Notes: generated by a model from the sequence alone, not told the origin. A DNA stretch of 64,000 nt from an uncultured cyanobacterium (GCA_963793425.1 CAWCAG010000005.1:778174-842173), one strand, 5' to 3'; positions 1 through 6,668 are shown, numbered from the stretch's first letter. Program-made: numbers and translations.

Positions 1-122
1 TCTCTATCTCTAATAAGAGTTTTTCTGTAGAGGGTTGTTCTTCTTGCTGCATTGCCCAGGATAAGATTCATTTTTTTGTGTAAATTCGACTAAGCCCCTT
101 CAGACTAGGCAATGATATATTT

Positions 123-165
123 TTACCTATTACCTATTACCTATTACTTATTACTTAATTACTCA
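123..165. repeat. heptamer array TTACCTA x3 / TTACTTA x2 (+ partial)
   Basis: ttaccta ttaccta ttaccta ttactta ttactta, directly downstream of the SiaC-like gene's stop. Confidence 0.85.
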
Positions 166-170
166 CTCCC

Positions 171-515
171 TCATGCCCATTCTAATTCTAAATTAGGCAT
201 TAAGCGTTGAAGGTTTTTTAAAGATTTCCCCTGCCAAGGAACCTGCTTAGATCCCTGTACTACCATAGAAACATCCTTTTCCTGGCGGACTTTAATAACA
301 AATTTTGATAAAACATTAATACCTGAACTATTAAGAAACTGCAAGTCTTGCAAATTCAAAGTAATAATGGGAGACTTTTGTTCAAGGACTTGGTGTAGTA
401 ACTCAATAATTGGTGCATATTCTTCCATACCACTAAGTCTTAGAGTCCCTTGACAGTTTACCGTTGCTGTAGATTGTTTATAGCAAATACTGTATTCTTT
501 TGTCTTAATCTCCAT
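171..515 (-). CDS. small DUF1987/SiaC-like (slr1659-like) partner-switch protein
   Basis: 114-aa ORF with a purine-rich GGGGGAG just upstream. LNLQDLQFLNSSGINVL resembles the LxYLNTSS core of SiaC/DUF1987. It is the third gene of a PP2C / GHKL-kinase / small-protein triplet. Confidence 0.55.
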   Translation of the reverse strand: MEIKTKEYSICYKQSTATVNCQGTLRLSGMEEYAPIIELLHQVLEQKSPIITLNLQDLQFLNSSGINVLSKFVIKVRQEKDVSMVVQGSKQVPWQGKSLKNLQRLMPNLELEWA

Positions 516-530
516 TTCTCCCCCTGTAAG

Positions 531-1112
531 CTATAACTTTAGCTGTACCAATGTGGTTAAAGCAACTATTTCTGGATTTTGCTGCACCGTCTCCAATTTC
601 CAGCCCACCTTTGCCATATAATCATTGATTATGGTTAGAAAGCCTAACCCAGAGTTGGTATCGTTGTCACCCTGAGCATTTTCTTCTAATTGCAGAATAT
701 ATAATTCTTGGGGATCGTAGGTTGCTAGTTTGTTGATAAAAACTTTAAGTTTATCTTGGTATTGAGAACTAATACTATTAGTAGTAGAAAAAACCACTCT
801 ATCGCGGTGAAAATGCAAGCTAATACTGATCGGATAATCCTTTTCTTCATCATTGAACTTCATGGCATTTTCTAACAATTCATTGGCAATATAACTAACA
901 GCACCTTTAATCTCTGCTTGATGCTCCATCTCATTTAACTCAATTTCATTGTTAAGAAAGAAAGTGGTTAAATAGTCTCCTAAAAAATCAGCCGATAAAC
1001 CATTGTTGCGCCAACGTTTCTTGATGGGAACTGAGCTAGGTGAAAATTGCAGGATCAAATATTCTTGAGTTGCAGGTAGATTGTGTCCGTAGTCTCCAAA
1101 TACTTGCTTCAT
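531..1112 (-). CDS. minimal GHKL-type Ser/Thr kinase-like protein (SiaB/RsbW-like, slr1658-like)
   Basis: 193 aa. ELLENAMKF looks like an N-box and SGLGFLTI like a G-box. The start overlaps the upstream stop as ATGA (1109-1112), suggesting translational coupling. Confidence 0.55.
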   Translation of the reverse strand: MKQVFGDYGHNLPATQEYLILQFSPSSVPIKKRWRNNGLSADFLGDYLTTFFLNNEIELNEMEHQAEIKGAVSYIANELLENAMKFNDEEKDYPISISLHFHRDRVVFSTTNSISSQYQDKLKVFINKLATYDPQELYILQLEENAQGDNDTNSGLGFLTIINDYMAKVGWKLETVQQNPEIVALTTLVQLKL

Positions 1113-3601
1113 GGTAATTCAATTATTTCTAACCCTTTTCTTTTAATTGCCACCAAAGTAATATCATCATAAACTTTTTGTTCTCCAATATATCCTTTAA
1201 CATGGCTGATCACCTCAGAACAAACTTCCTCTACCGATGCAGACCAATTTTGTTGGATTACTTTACACAATCTTTCTATGCCATAGTGCAAACCCTGCTC
1301 ATTTTCAGCTTCAGTAATGCCATCTGTATAAAGTATTATTCCATCTCCTGGCCCTAACTCTACCTTTGTTTCTGCTAAGAACTCAACTACATCTTCAATT
1401 AAACCTAAAGGAAAACCTAAATCAATGGTATCAATCCGCTCAATTTCGCCATTTTGGCGTACTAAAATGACTTCTTCATGCTGTCCACTCAAGGTGAGAA
1501 TACCTGCTTGGTAGTCAAGTAAACAAAGGGTAAGATTTTTTTCGGAACTCATACGTTGGACATTTTCATACACTGTCCAATTAATGGCTTCTAGGTACTT
1601 TTTGAGATCAGTCTCACCATTGGCTAAGAGGGTTCGTACAGCAGTTTGTACCATCAACATTAGTACTCCACTCTCTAATCCATGGCCGGTCACATCGCCG
1701 ATACCAATTTTAATCCTGCCGTTATGATAGATGACATCATAATAATCTCCTCCCACTTCCTGGGCCGGTTCCATGAAACCAGCTATTTCTAATTCTGGTA
1801 TTTTTTTAAGTTCCTCTTGATTAGGAAGAATCATAGTTTGCAGACGGCGAGTAATATCTACTTCTGAACTGAGGCGTAGGTTTTCTTGTTGCAGTCTTTG
1901 ATTAAGGGTGGTAATTTCTAAGTTAGCTTGAGCTAAAGCTTGTTGGGCTTCTTTGCGATCGCTTATATCTCGAAAAATGCCAGTGTAAAATCCCCCAGAG
2001 GCTAATTTTGCTTCTGATAAGCTAGCTTCTAAAGGTAGGGTTGAATCGTTAGCTTGCTTACCAACAACTTCATGTAAACCTACTCCTAATAAATTCTCTA
2101 AGGAAATATCTTCCGGCAATTCTAAAAGTTGATACATCGACATTCCGACTAAATTACTAAGAGGATAGCCGAAAATCACTTCTGCACTAGGATTAGCCAT
2201 AATAATTTGTAAATCTAGTTTGCTGAAGGTAATGATGGCATCAGTAGCGGTTTTAAAAAGTGCTTCAGTGCGGCTTATAGCTTCTTCTAAAGCATCCATT
2301 ACCTGGTTGTAGCGTTCGGCAATTAAGCCGACTTCGGTAAAGGGTTCTAGGGGAACACGCAAGCTTAAATCTTGGGTTTGAGCTTGCAAATCCATAACCT
2401 TAAATAAGTCATGAATTTCTGTTTTAGCACGATGTTCTGATATATTTAGACCAACTTTTTCTTGTTCTAAGGAAACTCGTAAAGGGAAGAAGCGGTTAAG
2501 AGTGCGTAGTAACAAGTAACTTAAACCAAAAGACCAGACAAAACAGACAAAAATCCCCAACAATTGTACTAATATTTGGTTTCCTTTCGTTAACCCCGTA
2601 GCTAACAAATCCGCTTTACCAAACAAAGCCACAGCCAAAGTTCCCCACACCCCAGCCCCGGCATGAACGGCGATCGCATCTACTGCATCATCAATACGCC
2701 AACGCCGAAGCCAATAGGAAACAAGTATAGTAACTCCTGCACCAATTGAGCCAATAATTACCGCTTCTGCAGTGTTGACGACATTACAGTTAGCCGTAAT
2801 CGCCACCAATCCGGCTAGGGAACCATTAATCAATATTTCTACTTCCGGGATTTTGTGCTGCTGCCAACCAATTATTCCGGCGGTAATCATCCCTGCCACC
2901 CCAGCTAAGACAGTGTTAACAATGATGCCAGGGACTTGCTCATTTAATTCTAAGGTACTGCCACCATTGAAGCCTAACCAGCCGATCCACAATAACATGG
3001 CTCCTAAAACAGAAAATTGTAAATTGGAGCCGTGAATCTTACGGGGCCTTCCTTCAGGGGGAAATCTGCCAGTGCGAGAACCAATAACGAATAAAGCGGC
3101 TAAACCTACCCAACCTCCTACGCTATGAACAACTGTAGAACCAGCAAAATCTAAAAAACCAAGTTGTTTTAACCACCCGGCTTGGTTCCAACTCCAATGG
3201 CCAAAAAAAGGATAAATTGTACTGGAAACTAAAACTGTGGTGGTTAGGTAGGCCCCAAACTTCATGCGCTCCGCCACTGCCCCTGAAACGATGGTGGCAG
3301 TAGTGCTACAAAACATGGCTTGGAAGAGGAAGAAGGCAGCTTTTTGAGCTTGGGAGTCTAAATTGACCAAAAAGTCTGTTGAGCCAACCCAGCCCCCTTG
3401 GGAAACCCCGAACATCCAGGCATAACCAAATAGCCAAAAGCAGGCTACGGAAATGCCGAAATCTGCTAAGTTTTTCACCGCAACGTTAATACTATTTTTG
3501 GAGCGGGTTAACCCAGACTCCAAACACATAAATCCTGGTTGCATTAAAAACACTAAACCAGCAGAAACCAGGAGCCAGAGGATGTTGATAGTTGTCTCCA
3601 T
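1109..3601 (-). CDS. ammonium-transporter (Amt) domain fused to PAS and a PP2C/SpoIIE phosphatase
   Basis: 830 aa. The N-terminal ~400 aa carry Amt signatures (LVFLMQPGFMCLESGLTRSKNSINVAVKN, STVVHSVGGWVGL, GLNISEH). A PAS-like segment and coiled coil follow, then PP2C motifs (GGDYYDV, GDVTGHGLESG, LYTDGITEA). Confidence 0.85.
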   Translation of the reverse strand: METTINILWLLVSAGLVFLMQPGFMCLESGLTRSKNSINVAVKNLADFGISVACFWLFGYAWMFGVSQGGWVGSTDFLVNLDSQAQKAAFFLFQAMFCSTTATIVSGAVAERMKFGAYLTTTVLVSSTIYPFFGHWSWNQAGWLKQLGFLDFAGSTVVHSVGGWVGLAALFVIGSRTGRFPPEGRPRKIHGSNLQFSVLGAMLLWIGWLGFNGGSTLELNEQVPGIIVNTVLAGVAGMITAGIIGWQQHKIPEVEILINGSLAGLVAITANCNVVNTAEAVIIGSIGAGVTILVSYWLRRWRIDDAVDAIAVHAGAGVWGTLAVALFGKADLLATGLTKGNQILVQLLGIFVCFVWSFGLSYLLLRTLNRFFPLRVSLEQEKVGLNISEHRAKTEIHDLFKVMDLQAQTQDLSLRVPLEPFTEVGLIAERYNQVMDALEEAISRTEALFKTATDAIITFSKLDLQIIMANPSAEVIFGYPLSNLVGMSMYQLLELPEDISLENLLGVGLHEVVGKQANDSTLPLEASLSEAKLASGGFYTGIFRDISDRKEAQQALAQANLEITTLNQRLQQENLRLSSEVDITRRLQTMILPNQEELKKIPELEIAGFMEPAQEVGGDYYDVIYHNGRIKIGIGDVTGHGLESGVLMLMVQTAVRTLLANGETDLKKYLEAINWTVYENVQRMSSEKNLTLCLLDYQAGILTLSGQHEEVILVRQNGEIERIDTIDLGFPLGLIEDVVEFLAETKVELGPGDGIILYTDGITEAENEQGLHYGIERLCKVIQQNWSASVEEVCSEVISHVKGYIGEQKVYDDITLVAIKRKGLEIIELP

Positions 3602-3848: not shown

Positions 3849-6668
3849 ATGCAAATTTCAACTTCTTGTCTCAAACTACCTGCCCTGGAACAAATTATTA
3901 ATTCCAATCCTTTAGTTGTACCTCCTAATGCCTCAGTTAGAGATGTGATGACTTTTCTGCTCCAGGGGCAAAAAGGTACTCGTGGTGAATTTTGTGCTGT
4001 TGTTGAAGAGCAAGGGAAAATCCTAGGAATATTGGCTCAACAAGATGTTATTAAGTTAGCAACATTGGAAAAACGTTGGGAATTTTTTACTGTTGCAGAT
4101 GTAGTAGAGAAAAACCATGTTGTTTTAGCTGAGGCTCAATATAATGATGTTTTTCAAGTTTGTAGTTTGTTGCGCCAATATGAAACTGACTACTTACTAG
4201 TTGAGGATCAACAAGGTAGCTTGAAAGGAGTGATAACCTCTGAGTTAATCCTCAATTCTTTGCAGGGAAGTCATATTTGGCAACAGGGTTTTGTTGGTGA
4301 GGTAATGAATACTGATGATTTCAGCGTTACTCCCCAAACTTCATTGCTTCAAGCTGCTCGATTAATGTCTGAAAACGAGAGAGATTGGGTGATTATTGCT
4401 CAAGATGTTCAACCTTTGGGATTGGTGACAACTAAAGATATTATCCAGCACCAACTTAATAGCTCTGATTTGGCACAAGTCCAAGCTTTGGCAGTAATGA
4501 ATACTCTCCCATCAAAAGTTTTAGCAGAAGATTCTTTGGATTCAGCATGGCAGAAAATACAGCAAAATAGTTGGCAACCATTATTAGTTACAAATAGTCA
4601 AGGAGCATTACTAGGAACTTTAACTCAAGCTAGTTTTTTACGATGCCTTGAACCCAGGGAAATGTATAGTAAACTTGAGTTGTTATACCGAGAAAATCAA
4701 CAGCTTAGAAGCGAAAAAGCTCAGCTTTTAAAATCTCAATCTCATGAAACAGAAGCAGAATTAGAAGGAGCAAAAGACCAACTTCAAGCCGTTTTAGATG
4801 CTATGCCGGGAACTATTTCTTGGATTGACTCTGATTTATGTTATTTAGGAGTTAACAAACAATTAGCTAGTCTTTTTAATAAACCGACAGAAGGTTTTGT
4901 TGGTAAAAAAATTGGCTTTTTTAAAGAAAACGATGAATTTGGTTATCACATGGAACGTTTCTTTGCTAGTTCTCAGCAAGAATCTTCCTTAGAAGTAGAA
5001 ATGCAAGTTGGTGACTCATTTAATAATTATTTAGTTGTTACTCGTAAGTATAATCATAATCGAGCGGCTGTGGCTGTAGGGGTTAACATAACTGACCGCA
5101 AAAAGACAGAGATGGCTTTGGTTAAAAGTGCTGCTACTAATCGCGCTCTAATTAATTCTATTCCTGATTTAATGTTCTGCTTTAATCATGATGGTATATT
5201 CCTAGATTATAAAGCAGCAAAAGATTATGAAGCAGCAGTTTCTCCAGAAGATTTTTTAGGTAAAAGAGTAAATGAAGTGCTGCCACCACAAATATCTCAG
5301 TCAGTTTTGCAATGTATAAAGCGGGCTTTACAAACCAAAGAAATACAGTCTTTTGAATATCAGTTACCTCGAAGTTATCAGGATAACAAGATCAGAGATT
5401 GGGAAGCCCGTCTTTTTGTTAGCAATGAAAATGAAGTTATGGCTATTATAAGAGATATTACAGAACGCAAACGTTCGGAAACTGAATTACGTCGTCAAAG
5501 TCTTAAATCTCGACTATTCGCTGAAATTAGCTTGAAAATTCGCCAATCTTTGCAATTAGAAGAAATCTTACAAACCACCGTTACAGAAGTACAGCAGATA
5601 TTTCAAGTAGACAGAGTTTTAATTTATCATTGCTTAGCTTCTGGGCTAGATAAAGTTATTATGGAGGAGGTTTTATTAGGTTGGCCAAAAACTTTAGGGA
5701 TGTCTTTTCCCCAAGAAGTATCCTTTCAAAATCACCAAGATAGTTGGAGACAAGGAGAAGTTTTAGCTATTGCTGATTTGGAGAAAGAATATGGGAAAAC
5801 TTCACCGTCTATAGTCGCTTTCTGGCAAAATTGGTTTGTTAAAGCGAAGTTGGTTGTACCTATTTTACAACAAGAAAAACTTTGGGGCTTAATCATAGTT
5901 CATCAATGTTCTAGTTGCCGACATTGGAGTAATTTTGAGACAGAACTATTACAGCAGCTAGCTGATCAAGTAGGTATTGCTATTTCTCAAGCCCAACTTT
6001 TAAAGGAACAGCAAGAAAGTGAAGCGATGATTCGAGCATCTCTACAAGAGAAAGAGGTTTTGTTAAAAGAGATTCACCATCGAGTTAAGAATAATCTCCA
6101 GGTCATTTCTAGCCTTTTTTCTTTACAGTCTTATTATCTTGAAGATTCTAAAGCTTTGCGAGTACTTGAAGATAGTCAAAGTAGAGTCAAAGCCATGGCT
6201 TTAATTCATGAAAAAATCTATAACTCTCAAGATTTGTCTAAGGTCAATTTTGCTAAATATATCCAAGATTTGGCAAACTATTTATTTCATGCTTACGAAC
6301 CTAACCCCCAAGTAGAGTTAGAAATTGATGTCGAGCCTGTCTCCCTAAATTTAGATACGGCTACTCCTTGTGGACTGTTGATCAACGAAGTTATTTCTAA
6401 TGCTCTTAAATATGCTTTTCCTAATAAAAAGAAAGGTAGGATCTGGATTAAGCTTTATTATTTAAACCAGGAAAAAATGGTTTTAGAAATAGGAGATAAT
6501 GGGGTTGGCTTTCCTCCAAACCTTGATTTGGAGGAAACGGAATCATTGGGTCTTCAGTTAGTAAAAGATTTAGCTCAGCAGTTAAAAGGTAAACTAGAAA
6601 TAAATTGTCACCAAGGAACGCGATTGAAAATCACATTTTCTGAATTACAATACCGGAGACGAATGTAA
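3849..6668 (+). CDS. sensor histidine kinase: CBS x4 - PAS x2 - GAF - HisKA_2 - HATPase
   Basis: 939 aa. N-terminal CBS pairs, PAS segments ending in ITDRKK/ITERKR, and a GAF domain. HisKA_2-type H-box EIHHRVKNNLQVISSL and ATPase motif GDNGVGFP. Confidence 0.85.
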   Translation: MQISTSCLKLPALEQIINSNPLVVPPNASVRDVMTFLLQGQKGTRGEFCAVVEEQGKILGILAQQDVIKLATLEKRWEFFTVADVVEKNHVVLAEAQYNDVFQVCSLLRQYETDYLLVEDQQGSLKGVITSELILNSLQGSHIWQQGFVGEVMNTDDFSVTPQTSLLQAARLMSENERDWVIIAQDVQPLGLVTTKDIIQHQLNSSDLAQVQALAVMNTLPSKVLAEDSLDSAWQKIQQNSWQPLLVTNSQGALLGTLTQASFLRCLEPREMYSKLELLYRENQQLRSEKAQLLKSQSHETEAELEGAKDQLQAVLDAMPGTISWIDSDLCYLGVNKQLASLFNKPTEGFVGKKIGFFKENDEFGYHMERFFASSQQESSLEVEMQVGDSFNNYLVVTRKYNHNRAAVAVGVNITDRKKTEMALVKSAATNRALINSIPDLMFCFNHDGIFLDYKAAKDYEAAVSPEDFLGKRVNEVLPPQISQSVLQCIKRALQTKEIQSFEYQLPRSYQDNKIRDWEARLFVSNENEVMAIIRDITERKRSETELRRQSLKSRLFAEISLKIRQSLQLEEILQTTVTEVQQIFQVDRVLIYHCLASGLDKVIMEEVLLGWPKTLGMSFPQEVSFQNHQDSWRQGEVLAIADLEKEYGKTSPSIVAFWQNWFVKAKLVVPILQQEKLWGLIIVHQCSSCRHWSNFETELLQQLADQVGIAISQAQLLKEQQESEAMIRASLQEKEVLLKEIHHRVKNNLQVISSLFSLQSYYLEDSKALRVLEDSQSRVKAMALIHEKIYNSQDLSKVNFAKYIQDLANYLFHAYEPNPQVELEIDVEPVSLNLDTATPCGLLINEVISNALKYAFPNKKKGRIWIKLYYLNQEKMVLEIGDNGVGFPPNLDLEETESLGLQLVKDLAQQLKGKLEINCHQGTRLKITFSELQYRRRM

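What the first reader, a model, noticed from the sequence alone, without database searches (positions are those of the whole stretch)
1..3601. Ammonium-transporter domain fused to a PP2C phosphatase, with a SiaB/SiaC-like partner-switch pair
One 830-aa protein combines a complete-looking Amt/MEP domain, a PAS-like region and a PP2C/SpoIIE phosphatase. It is translationally coupled (ATGA overlap at 1109-1112) to a minimal GHKL kinase-like protein. Fifteen nucleotides later comes a 114-aa protein whose LQFLNSS core resembles DUF1987/SiaC. The order phosphatase - kinase - small phosphoprotein mirrors the SiaA/SiaB/SiaC module of Pseudomonas aeruginosa, where the fourth gene encodes the output diguanylate cyclase. 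Here a fourth minus-strand ORF starts at 71 (MNLILGNAARRTTLYRKTLIRDR...) and leaves the window, so the output is unknown. Amt-like domains acting as ammonium sensors fused to signalling outputs are known. I am not aware of an Amt-gated Sia-type partner switch having been characterised.
Basis: partly seen in the sequence, partly recalled or inferred. Interest (0 to 1): 0.6.

Follow-up and report, generated by a model that had tools for sequence, protein, structure and literature searches.

The report
Ammonium-sensor phosphatase switch controlling cAMP cyclase
A cyanobacterial four-gene cluster joins an ammonium-receptor membrane domain fused to a protein phosphatase, a kinase-like protein, a small phospho-switch protein and an adenylate cyclase, which suggests an untested route from external ammonium to cAMP.

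Summary
The fourth ORF was read in the wrong frame. The true fourth gene starts at window position 52 and encodes a 474-aa coiled-coil/PAS/class III adenylate cyclase.

- **Amt domain:** it is of the ammonium-receptor type. Its best solved relatives are Sd-Amt1 and Ks-Amt5, and it carries the complete published N1/N2 sensing signature.
- **PP2C domain:** all four catalytic motifs are present.
- **193-aa and 114-aa proteins:** they score above cut-off for the NCBIfam slr1658 and slr1659 families. Their predicted folds match SpoIIAB/SiaB and SiaC best. They score below cut-off for the SiaB and SiaC sequence families.
- **Conservation:** Amt-PP2C followed directly by slr1658/slr1659 recurs in 7 of 8 sampled genomes that carry the fusion, and in several metagenomic loci with different flanks.
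- **Output link:** the cyclase carries an N-terminal stalk motif (DLEILLETTTEHSD). Across 401 genomes this motif co-occurs almost perfectly with slr1658, usually right beside the pair. It also heads diguanylate cyclases and histidine kinases.

Most likely this is a SiaABCD-like partner switch with an ammonium input and a cAMP output. I class it as a new variant of a known kind. No step has been tested biochemically.

The parts
1109..3601 (-). 830-aa sensor phosphatase: Amt (ammonium-receptor type), linker, PAS, coiled coil, SpoIIE/PP2C
   Evidence: ORF. Pfam and NCBIfam domains. Full-length homologues at 57-94% identity.
2402..3601 (-). Amt domain (residues 1-400). Pore residues F97, W138, D151, H159, F211, S215, H313. 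N1/N2 sensing residues Q21, E28, N44, D47, F48, T103, S106. Exit-constricting N259.
   Evidence: Best PDB hits are Sd-Amt1 8qj3 (E 2e-114) and Ks-Amt5 6eu6 (E 1e-89), against AmtB at 3e-41. A regex for the published signature matches residues 21-106. The signature is taken from PMC11152129.
1934..2272 (-). PAS domain (residues about 444-556)
   Evidence: PAS_9 at E 3e-7 and TIGR00229 at E 1e-9. Close relatives P0002, P0003 and L030 (717 aa) lack it.
1139..1723 (-). PP2C/SpoIIE phosphatase domain (residues 627-821) with intact metal-binding motifs
   Evidence: SpoIIE at E 1.4e-38. Alignments to Rv1364c 3ke6 and SiaA 6k4e. 80 of 81 fused homologues keep all four motifs.
531..1112 (-). 193-aa slr1658-family GHKL kinase-like protein (SiaB/SpoIIAB fold plus a conserved ~55-aa N-terminal extension)
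   Evidence: NF052618 at 271 bits against a cut-off of 200. AF2 pLDDT 81.8. Foldseek top hits 1tid, 6kko_A and 8ih8. Family invariants are listed.
171..515 (-). 114-aa slr1659-family SiaC/STAS-fold protein. Predicted phospho-acceptor is S63, within the invariant LNSSGI.
   Evidence: NF047705 at 170 bits against a cut-off of 100. AF2 pLDDT 95.1. Foldseek top hit is SiaC 6k4f. The family profile aligns FLNSSG with SpoIIAA FMDSSG.
1..52 (-). First 17 codons of the 474-aa stalk-motif/PAS/class IIIb adenylate cyclase. The rest lies outside the window, at G000:C5:776801-778173.
   Evidence: ORF L003 12628..14052(-). Guanylate_cyc at E 2e-18 and PAS. Best PDB hit is CyaB 3r5g, with residues D241, K281, D285, T349, N356, R360. 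Orthologues are aligned.
53..170 (.). 118-nt spacer between the slr1659 gene and the cyclase gene. It contains a heptamer tandem repeat at 123-154.
   Evidence: TRF finds period 7 with 4.6 copies. The repeat is dispersed across the genome, with 57 matches. No promoter or terminator above chance.

Best explanation
This is a four-gene, sigma-less partner-switching module with an ammonium input and a cAMP output.

1. The 830-aa protein is an ammonium receptor. Periplasmic NH4+ passes the normal Amt selectivity filter and occupies the N1/N2 side sites, as in Sd-Amt1 and Ks-Amt5. The resulting change is passed through the linker, PAS and coiled coil to the C-terminal PP2C domain and alters its activity.
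2. The 193-aa slr1658 protein is a SiaB/SpoIIAB-like GHKL serine kinase that phosphorylates the 114-aa slr1659 protein on S63. The PP2C removes that phosphate.
3. Unphosphorylated slr1659 binds the conserved DLEILLETTTEHSD motif on the N-terminal coiled-coil stalk of the adjacent 474-aa PAS-class III adenylate cyclase. This stabilises the active cyclase dimer, by analogy with SiaC on the SiaD stalk, so that the cAMP level follows ammonium availability.

Shown here:
- domain identities and intact catalytic and sensing residues;
- predicted folds;
- conserved gene order;
- co-occurrence of the stalk motif with the switch.

Inferred:
- ammonium binding without transport;
- the sign of the response;
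- kinase activity, and S63 as the site;
- which small protein docks on the stalk.

My step odds are: parts identified correctly 0.9; phosphorylation cycle on slr1659 0.7; cyclase is the output 0.7; slr1659 rather than slr1658 is the stalk binder 0.5.
For: **Input**
- The Amt domain is far closer to the two solved ammonium receptors than to transporters.
- It has the complete QX6EX15NX2D[F/T]X54-60TX2[S/T] signature.
- N259 aligns with the exit-blocking Asn-269 of Sd-Amt1.
- The genome has two other Amt genes (490 and 481 aa) that fail the signature (N for Q21, V for D47) and can serve uptake.

**Switch**
- The PP2C catalytic motifs are intact.
- The PP2C domain is 58-64% identical to PP2C domains with other sensor N-termini that sit directly beside slr1658/slr1659 pairs.
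- Family membership comes and the folds.
- N62-S63-S64 is invariant in 39 sequences and lies at the start of helix 2. This matches SiaC N67-T68-S69 (PMC8457831) and the SpoIIAA phospho-serine.

**Linkage**
- The phosphatase and kinase genes overlap by 4 nt.
- Amt-PP2C is followed by slr1658 within 21-457 bp in 7 of the 8 sampled genomes that have the fusion.
- The same order occurs in L004 and L027-L032, with different flanks.

**Output**
- The cyclase follows the pair in four loci at 60-92% identity. Its stalk motif is invariant in all four.
- The motif occurs twice in the GGDEF proteins of L032 and G344, which lie inside such clusters.
- In 401 genomes, 57 have both the motif and slr1658, 15 have slr1658 only, 1 has the motif only and 328 have neither. 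By my hand count of the coordinates, the motif ORF lies within about 2.5 kb of slr1658 in 46 of the 57.
- Four cluster representatives fuse stalk motif, GGDEF and an slr1658-like domain in one chain.
- Direct Amt-cyclase fusions exist. The Limnothrix fusion has a CHD scoring 269 bits against this cyclase, and the same genome holds a decayed copy.
- The cyclase keeps its catalytic residues and has the K281/T349 pair typical of adenylate cyclases.
Against: - Nothing here is biochemical or transcriptional.
- The slr1658 family lacks a canonical G1 box: an invariant N112-S113 stands where DxGxG is expected. Kinase activity is therefore not assured.
- The AmR signature also occurs in plant AMT1 proteins that do transport (PMC11152129). 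Transport is not excluded.
- The cyclase has one motif copy, whereas most bearers have two.
- The 118-nt spacer before the cyclase could hold its own promoter. The scan was uninformative.
- In the f4-family genomes that carry Amt-PP2C, the pair has no adjacent output, and the only motif bearer is a small stalk-GGDEF protein elsewhere. The cAMP output is therefore lineage-specific.
- The motif shows no detectable sequence similarity to the SiaD stalk.
- In Synechocystis, an slr1658 mutant has a transcriptional phenotype of unknown route: pgr5 is up about 1000-fold.
Confidence: 0.55

Rival explanations
1. RsbW-type wiring. The slr1658 protein, not slr1659, binds the cyclase stalk and holds the enzyme inactive, as an anti-sigma factor holds sigma. 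Dephosphorylated slr1659 pulls slr1658 away and frees the cyclase. The parts and the input are the same; only the docking partner differs.
For: - The 193-aa model matches the anti-sigma factors SpoIIAB, UsfX and RsbW as well as it matches SiaB.
- The slr1658 family has a strongly conserved ~55-residue N-terminal extension (invariant W34, R35, N36) that SiaB and RsbW lack. It could be a docking surface.
- Four cluster representatives fuse stalk-GGDEF to an slr1658-like domain.
Against: - The 114-aa model is closest to SiaC, which is the stalk binder in the solved SiaC-SiaD complex.
- Its invariant N62-S63-S64 mirrors the SiaC residues that contact the stalk.
- A fusion of kinase and enzyme fits equally well with slr1659 shuttling between two sites on one chain.
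Confidence: 0.2
2. The cyclase is only a neighbour. The Amt-PP2C/slr1658/slr1659 triad acts on another target, such as a transcription route as suggested by the Synechocystis slr1658 mutant, or another enzyme encoded elsewhere.
For: - In five sampled Amt-PP2C genomes and in loci L028, L029 and L031, no output gene follows the pair.
- The Synechocystis slr1658 mutant shows huge pgr5 induction by an unknown route.
- This genome has a second motif bearer, a 782-aa multi-PAS protein at C7:123735-126083.
- A 118-nt spacer separates the cyclase gene from the pair.
Against: - The cyclase follows the pair in four loci down to 60% identity, with different flanks in L027.
- It carries the motif that tracks slr1658 across 401 genomes and usually sits next to it.
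- The genomes without an adjacent output still have exactly one motif-bearing enzyme elsewhere.
Confidence: 0.12
3. Transceptor or self-regulation. The Amt domain is a working ammonium channel, and the fused PP2C mainly tunes uptake or reports flux, so ammonium transport is the primary function. A variant of this reading is that slr1658 is a pseudokinase, so no phosphorylation cycle exists.
For: - All canonical pore residues are present, including the twin His, the Phe gate and the Trp/Ser site.
- Proteins with the N1/N2 signature include genuine plant AMT1 transporters.
- The G1 box of slr1658 is non-canonical.
Against: - The closest solved relatives mainly bind ammonium rather than transport it.
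- N259 aligns with the residue that constricts the exit in Sd-Amt1.
- Two transporter-type Amt genes exist in the same genome.
- The same PP2C subtype is attached to unrelated sensors (CHASE, PilJ, kinase-AAA-GAF) next to the same pair, which argues for a signalling output.
- The N-box and G2 box of slr1658 are invariant.
Confidence: 0.1

Closest known systems
SiaABCD of Pseudomonas aeruginosa (PP2C SiaA, kinase SiaB, phosphoprotein SiaC, diguanylate cyclase SiaD; PDB 6k4e, 6kko, 6k4f, 7e6g)
   Same: - Gene order: sensor-PP2C, small GHKL kinase, small STAS-like phosphoprotein, dimeric cyclase with an N-terminal stalk.
- No sigma factor.
- Fold matches to SiaB and SiaC.
- An N-S/T-S phospho-site at the start of helix 2.
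[quoted passage not shown]
   Different: - Sequence scores are below cut-off for SiaA (54 against 700), SiaB (25 against 85) and SiaC/DUF1987 (18.2 against 24.5).
- The input is an Amt ammonium-receptor domain, not the SiaA periplasmic sensor.
- The output is a class III adenylate cyclase, not a GGDEF enzyme.
- The stalk motif is unrelated in sequence.
- slr1658 has an extra conserved N-terminal extension.
Sd-Amt1 of Shewanella denitrificans (PDB 8qj3, 8qj4, 8qpf) and Ks-Amt5 of Kuenenia stuttgartiensis (PDB 6eu6): ammonium receptors
   Same: - The Amt module has the N1/N2 ligand set, a constricted exit and a C-terminal fused transducer.
- They are the strongest sequence matches in the PDB.
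- The published signature is met.
   Different: - The transducer is a PP2C phosphatase feeding a partner switch, rather than a diguanylate cyclase (Sd-Amt1) or a histidine kinase (Ks-Amt5).
- A PAS domain lies in the linker.
- No HAMP domain is detected by Pfam in this protein.
Amt-PP2C fusions of SAR11 (Amt-GI5, SAR11_0049/0050; PMC11796062)
   Same: Same two-domain idea, Amt plus phosphoprotein phosphatase. It was proposed in print to be an ammonium sensor.
   Different: - That paper found no partner proteins and judged the fusion exclusive to SAR11 within its marine data set.
- Here the fusion is cyanobacterial and has a PAS domain.
- It is translationally coupled to its presumed kinase and substrate, and is followed by an output enzyme.
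slr1658/slr1659 of Synechocystis sp. PCC 6803 (NCBIfam NF052618, NF047703, NF047705; Zer et al. 2018 Plant J, cited in PMC7555055)
   Same: The 193-aa and 114-aa proteins are members of these families, with scores above cut-off.
   Different: - For Synechocystis I found only a mutant phenotype: iron-starvation recovery and pgr5 de-repression.
- I found no mechanism, no named input and no Amt-fused phosphatase in the papers searched.
BgrSTUWV-BgrR of Sinorhizobium meliloti and HptB-HsbR-HsbA-HsbD of P. aeruginosa (partner switches that control diguanylate cyclases; cited in PMC8457831)
   Same: In both, a STAS-type phosphoprotein regulates a nucleotide cyclase rather than a sigma factor.
   Different: Different sequence families, c-di-GMP output and different inputs. 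I did not compare the sequences here.

Membership tests
Ammonium receptor (AmR) subgroup of Amt/Rh (Pfluger et al. 2018, 2024) | Canonical Amt pore: Trp/Ser vestibule, Phe gate, twin His | tested here: met
   W138, S215, F97, F211, H159 and H313 align with AmtB W148, S219, F107, F215, H168 and H318.
Ammonium receptor (AmR) subgroup of Amt/Rh (Pfluger et al. 2018, 2024) | N1/N2 ligand signature QX6EX15NX2D[F/T]X54-60TX2[S/T] | tested here: met
   The regex matches residues 21-106 (Q21, E28, N44, D47, F48, T103, S106). The signature comes from PMC11152129. The genome's two other Amt proteins fail it.
Ammonium receptor (AmR) subgroup of Amt/Rh (Pfluger et al. 2018, 2024) | Cytoplasmic transducer domain fused to the C-terminus | tested here: met
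   PAS plus SpoIIE/PP2C at residues 444-821.
Ammonium receptor (AmR) subgroup of Amt/Rh (Pfluger et al. 2018, 2024) | Binds NH4+ without sustained transport; ligand-dependent output | not testable with these tools
   This needs SSM electrophysiology or activity assays. The only support here is alignment of N259 with the exit-blocking Asn-269 of Sd-Amt1.
slr1658/slr1659 regulator pair (NCBIfam) | Scores above the curated cut-offs of NF052618/NF047703 and NF047705 | tested here: met
   271 and 243 bits against cut-offs of 200 and 100; 170 bits against a cut-off of 100.
slr1658/slr1659 regulator pair (NCBIfam) | The two genes adjacent, next to a SpoIIE-type PP2C gene | tested here: met
   Found here, in L004 and L018-L032, and in the coordinates.
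SiaABCD system | Sequence membership in SiaA (NF038263), SiaB (NF038262) and SiaC/DUF1987 (PF09345) | tested here: not met
   54 bits against 700, 25 against 85, and 18.2 against 24.5.
SiaABCD system | SiaB-like and SiaC-like folds | tested here: met
   Foldseek: 6kko_A at E 6e-5, TMq 0.51; 6k4f at E 1e-4, TMq 0.71; 7e6g_F at TMq 0.75.
SiaABCD system | Output is a GGDEF diguanylate cyclase activated by stalk binding | tested here: not met
   The fourth gene is a class III cyclase. Stalk binding itself cannot be tested here. GGDEF outputs do occur in related clusters.
Classical RsbU/RsbV/RsbW or SpoIIE/AA/AB partner switch | Anti-sigma kinase that sequesters a sigma factor encoded in or near the operon | tested here: not met
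   No sigma-factor gene lies in the 14 kb downstream or 6 kb upstream. The STAS Pfam score of 20.9 is below the cut-off of 22.6.
GHKL serine protein kinase | N-box, G1 box (DxGxG) and G2 box for ATP and Mg binding | tested here: inconclusive
   The N-box (E78, E81, N82, K85) and the G2-like S154/G157 (within SGLG) are invariant. The G1 position holds an invariant N112-S113 instead of DxGxG.
Class III (IIIb) adenylate cyclase | Two metal Asp, substrate Lys plus Thr/Asp, transition-state Asn and Arg | tested here: met
   D241, D285, K281, T349, N356 and R360 in the alignment with P. aeruginosa CyaB 3r5g. Nucleotide specificity is inferred from these residues only.

The most novel reading that the evidence does not exclude
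slr1659 is a general, phosphorylation-gated "stalk clamp". It docks on the portable DLEIxLETxTEHxD coiled-coil motif and switches on whichever dimeric signalling enzyme carries that motif. Among the top 100 motif bearers, 46 have GGDEF, 21 have histidine-kinase domains and 14 have class III cyclase domains.

In this organism the clamp is driven by an Amt ammonium receptor and aimed at an adenylate cyclase. To my knowledge, which is limited to the papers searched, that would be the first partner switch shown to control a class III cyclase. It would also be a PII-independent route from external ammonium to cAMP in a cyanobacterium.
Probability: 0.35. Interest if true: 0.75.

Novelty: new variant of a known kind. 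Interest (0 to 1): 0.6.

Why it matters
**Ammonium sensing.** Cyanobacterial nitrogen sensing is usually explained through 2-oxoglutarate, PII and NtcA. A membrane receptor for external ammonium wired to a second messenger would add a separate, fast input.

**Annotation.** In the hits that carry a source name, these proteins are named almost always just "ammonium transporter" (a few also "histidine kinase"). At least 80 clusters at 90% identity among the top 120 hits carry the phosphatase. Uptake capacity may therefore be overestimated and a sensor class overlooked.

**The slr1658/slr1659 pair.** It occurs in 72 of 401 sampled cyanobacterial genomes. The only published functional data I found are the Synechocystis slr1658 mutant phenotypes. 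This locus provides:
- a defined candidate ligand (ammonium);
- a defined candidate output (cAMP);
- a short stalk motif that makes the input-to-output path directly testable with purified proteins.

**Generality.** The locus also suggests how one switch can be re-aimed at c-di-GMP, cAMP or histidine-kinase outputs by moving a roughly 20-residue motif.

Tried and rejected
Rejected. It closes after 37 codons.
- **HAMP domain between Amt and PAS.** By eye, EVGLIAERYNQVMDAL looks HAMP-like. Pfam finds no HAMP in this protein even at E 10. HAMP (PF00672) is listed only for some PAS-less homologues. Left as a lead.
- **Sequence-level link of the two small-protein profiles to SiaB and SiaC in the PDB.** Not detected. 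Only fold search shows the link.
- **Stalk-motif profile against the PDB.** Only generic coiled-coil peptides match, through the first half of the profile, at 22 bits or less. SiaD is not found. The motif is therefore not homologous in sequence to the SiaD motif. The generic half of the profile could add noise, although the genome hits span positions 1-48.
- **Promoter and terminator scan of the operon and the 118-nt spacer.** Nothing above the shuffle expectation.
- **Adjacency as a universal rule.** Rejected. Amt-PP2C stands alone in Lyngbya CCY1209, Limnospira, a Pseudanabaenaceae MAG and Hormoscilla, and lies 105 kb from the pair in G344.
- **Divergent CBS-PAS-GAF kinase at 3849-6668 as part of the module.** Rejected. 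It is next to the operon only in close relatives and not in L027.
- **My first strict-signature count.** It was limited to the first 160 residues and undercounted. Over full length, 82 of 120 homologues match.

Full report
**1. Observation**

The window is G000:C5:778174-842173 of a 5.28-Mb cyanobacterial assembly. On the minus strand lie:
- an 830-aa ORF at 1109..3601;
- a 193-aa ORF at 531..1112;
- a 114-aa ORF at 171..515.

The first two overlap in ATGA. The second and third are 15 nt apart.

I fetched 14 kb beyond the window edge. The real fourth gene starts at ATG 52 and encodes 474 aa.

**2. The sensor phosphatase**

Pfam and NCBIfam give three domains:
- Ammonium_transp, residues 8-393, E 8e-123;
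- PAS, about residues 444-556;
- SpoIIE/PP2C, residues 627-821, E 1.4e-38.

Against all PDB sequences, the Amt part matches the ammonium receptors Sd-Amt1 (E 2e-114) and Ks-Amt5 (E 1e-89). These are far better matches than Af-Amt1 (4e-59) or AmtB (3e-41).

From those alignments, the pore residues of AmtB are all kept as F97, W138, D151, H159, F211, S215 and H313.

Pfluger et al. 2024 (PMC11152129) define the receptor class by two internal NH4+ sites, N1 and N2. They propose the signature QX6EX15NX2D[F/T]X54-60TX2[S/T]. A regex finds it at residues 21-106. N259 aligns with Asn-269, which narrows the cytoplasmic exit in Sd-Amt1.

The same genome has two further Amt genes (490 and 481 aa) that fail the signature. 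They can account for uptake.

One caveat comes from the same paper: signature-bearing proteins include plant AMT1 transporters. Transport is therefore not excluded.

The PP2C domain aligns with Rv1364c and SiaA. It keeps GGDYYD, GDVTGHG, YTDGITE and YDDITL. Of 81 fused homologues, 80 keep all four motifs.

**3. The two small proteins**

*Family membership.*
- The 193-aa protein scores 271 bits on NF052618 (slr1658 family, cut-off 200). It scores only 25 bits on the SiaB family (cut-off 85).
- The 114-aa protein scores 170 bits on NF047705 (slr1659 superfamily, cut-off 100). It is below cut-off on STAS (20.9) and on SiaC/DUF1987 (18.2).

*Predicted folds.* I built AlphaFold models from alignments of 46 and 39 homologues. 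They reached pLDDT 81.8 and 95.1.
- Foldseek places the 193-aa model with SpoIIAB, SiaB (6kko_A), UsfX and RsbW.
- It places the 114-aa model with SiaC first (6k4f, 7e6g, 6kkp; TM 0.71-0.75), then with anti-sigma antagonists.

*The slr1659 family.* L61-N62-S63-S64-G65-I66 is invariant, and S63 begins helix 2. The family profile aligns FLNSSG with SpoIIAA FMDSSG, where the first Ser is the phospho-site. In SiaC, N67-T68-S69 at the start of helix 2 contacts the SiaD stalk, and phospho-T68 blocks binding (PMC8457831).

*The slr1658 family.* The N-box and a G2-like box are invariant. N112-S113 stands where the G1 DxGxG box is expected. A conserved ~55-residue N-terminal extension (W34, R35, N36) has no counterpart in SiaB. 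Kinase activity is thus plausible but unproven.

**4. The fourth gene**

The 474-aa protein has a PAS domain (residues 65-185) and a class III cyclase domain (residues 233-403, E 2e-18).

Its best solved relative is P. aeruginosa CyaB (E 3e-28). D241, D285, K281, T349, N356 and R360 are in place. This predicts an active class IIIb adenylate cyclase.

**5. Conservation of the arrangement**

*Abundance of the fusion.* Amt-(PAS)-PP2C proteins are numerous. At least 80 clusters at 90% identity appear among the top 120 hits. They come from many filamentous cyanobacteria and from Beggiatoa, and where a source names them they are called "ammonium transporter".

*Sampled genomes.* In an even sample of 401 genomes of the phylum, 8 carry the full-length fusion. 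In 7 of these 8, an slr1658 gene lies 21-457 bp downstream.

*Individual loci.*

| Locus | What follows Amt-PP2C |
|---|---|
| L004 (94% identical MAG) | slr1658, slr1659, cyclase |
| L027 (69% identity, different flanks) | slr1658, slr1659, cyclase |
| L030 (no PAS) | slr1658, slr1659, cyclase |
| L028 | a second CHASE-PP2C, then the pair; no output gene |
| L029, L031 | the pair, with an extra PP2C upstream; no output gene |
| L032 | a GGDEF gene, then the pair |

All these pairs pass the NCBIfam cut-offs. The fusion stands alone in Lyngbya/Limnospira, a Pseudanabaenaceae MAG and Hormoscilla.

*PP2C subtype.* The PP2C domain itself is 58-64% identical to PP2C domains with quite different N-termini that also sit beside slr1658/slr1659 pairs. 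The phosphatase-pair link is therefore general and the sensor is exchangeable.

*This genome.* It has a single pair.

**6. The link to the cyclase**

The four orthologous cyclases share an invariant N-terminal segment, DLEILLETTTEHSDTIEAEL. I tested the idea independently in five ways.

1. *Related clusters.* The GGDEF protein inside the L032 cluster has two copies of the motif. So does the one between the PP2C and the pair in G344.
2. *Genomes without an adjacent output.* Five of the Amt-PP2C genomes (G008, G014, G092, G194, G328) lack an adjacent output yet have a motif match elsewhere. Where I read the ORF (G008, G014, G328), it is a 243-278-aa stalk-GGDEF protein. G394 gave only a weak single-sequence match.
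3. *Library search.* A 50-position profile of the motif finds 365 clusters in a 1.8-billion-protein library. Of these, 150 have E of 1e-10 or better, and most have two matched stretches. Among the top 100, 46 have GGDEF, 21 have HisKA plus HATPase and 14 have class III cyclase domains.
4. *Triple fusions.* Four representatives are fusions of stalk motifs, GGDEF and an slr1658-like domain.
5. *Phyletic profile.* In the same 401 genomes:

| | slr1658 present | slr1658 absent |
|---|---|---|
| Motif present | 57 | 1 |
| Motif absent | 15 | 328 |

By my hand count of the listed coordinates, the motif ORF lies within about 2.5 kb of slr1658 in 46 of the 57. These genomes are related to one another, so the counts are not independent events. 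The pattern still spans about 30 genera.

Two further observations tie Amt sensors to class III cyclases:
- Direct Amt-PAS-cyclase fusions exist in Dapis, Okeania, Phormidium and Limnothrix. The Limnothrix CHD scores 269 bits against this cyclase.
- This genome holds a deletion remnant of such a fusion at C9:245270-246275.

**7. Mechanism**

The best-supported reading is a SiaABCD-like partner switch:
- ammonium occupancy of N1/N2 alters PP2C activity;
- slr1658 phosphorylates slr1659 on S63, and the PP2C dephosphorylates it;
- free slr1659 clamps the cyclase stalk and favours the active dimer.

Class III cyclases, like GGDEF enzymes and histidine kinases, work as dimers. This would explain why one motif serves all three enzyme types.

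I cannot say whether ammonium turns the phosphatase on or off. The main rival keeps all the parts but makes slr1658 the stalk binder, as in RsbW.

**8. Comparison and novelty**

- Amt receptors fused to a histidine kinase or a diguanylate cyclase have been solved and studied.
- Amt-phosphatase fusions were noted for SAR11 without partners (PMC11796062).
- SiaABCD and two other switches control diguanylate cyclases.
- For slr1658, I found only Synechocystis mutant phenotypes, plus a computed interaction network that happens to group Slr1657-1660 with the Amt3 protein Sll0537.
- No paper in the library mentions DUF6272 or the slr1658/slr1659 superfamily names.
- None of the papers I read from the search on partner switching and adenylate cyclase describes a partner switch controlling an adenylate cyclase.

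The locus is therefore a new combination of known module types: ammonium receptor input, slr1658/slr1659 switch, cAMP output.

**9. Limits**

- All functional statements are inferences from sequence, predicted structure and gene context.
- No expression data could be obtained.
- The promoter and terminator scan was uninformative.
- Multimer modelling was not available.

Noticed in passing
window 123-154 (spacer between the slr1659 gene and the cyclase gene): A heptamer tandem repeat (TTACCTA, 4.6 copies; TAGGTAA on the gene strand). The same repeat is dispersed over the genome, with 57 matches to the region found. It looks like the short tandemly repeated heptamers typical of filamentous cyanobacteria.
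   Followed up: partly
G000:C9:245270-246275 (outside the window): A 227-aa N-terminal half of a receptor-type Amt (MQPGFMCLESGLTRSKNSINVAVKNLAD...) runs straight into the C-terminal half of a class III cyclase domain in another frame (DKYIGDAIMALFS...). It is apparently a deletion remnant of a direct Amt-cyclase fusion. Its cyclase part is a close paralogue of the 474-aa cyclase.
   Followed up: partly
G000:C7:123735-126083 (-), outside the window: A 782-aa multi-PAS protein carries a variant of the stalk motif (DLELLLETTTDHSSFMEAEL, around residue 239). It ends in a coiled coil with no recognisable output domain. It could be a second target of the switch or a truncated enzyme.
   Followed up: no
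protein ids P0369, P0449, P0450, P0467 (representative library): Single polypeptides of 467-528 aa combine one to three stalk motifs, a GGDEF domain and a C-terminal slr1658-like domain. The output enzyme and the kinase-like partner of the switch are thus fused in one chain.
   Followed up: partly
L028 7611-9476, L029 3522-4895, L031 3382-4683, L034 3466-4947: In other cyanobacteria the Amt-PP2C gene has a second PP2C gene with another sensor (CHASE, PilJ or none recognised) directly beside it. This suggests several inputs converge on one slr1658/slr1659 pair.
   Followed up: no
window 3849-6668 (+): A 939-aa CBS-PAS-GAF-HisKA_2 histidine kinase is divergently transcribed from the operon. The same neighbour is present in the close relative L030, and a similar-sized gene in L004, but not in L027. 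It is probably not part of the module.
   Followed up: partly
whole genome G000: The genome encodes many class III cyclase paralogues. At least a dozen ORFs score above 120 bits against this cyclase domain, several of them in proteins of 1100-1900 aa. Weaker hits in that list may be GGDEF domains.
   Followed up: no
P0082-P0120: The same receptor-type Amt-PAS module is fused in other cyanobacteria to histidine kinases (Lyngbya PCC 8106, Planktothrix, Spirulina) or to class III cyclases. Where sources name them, they are mostly named only "ammonium transporter"; two are also named histidine kinase by UniRef.
   Followed up: partly
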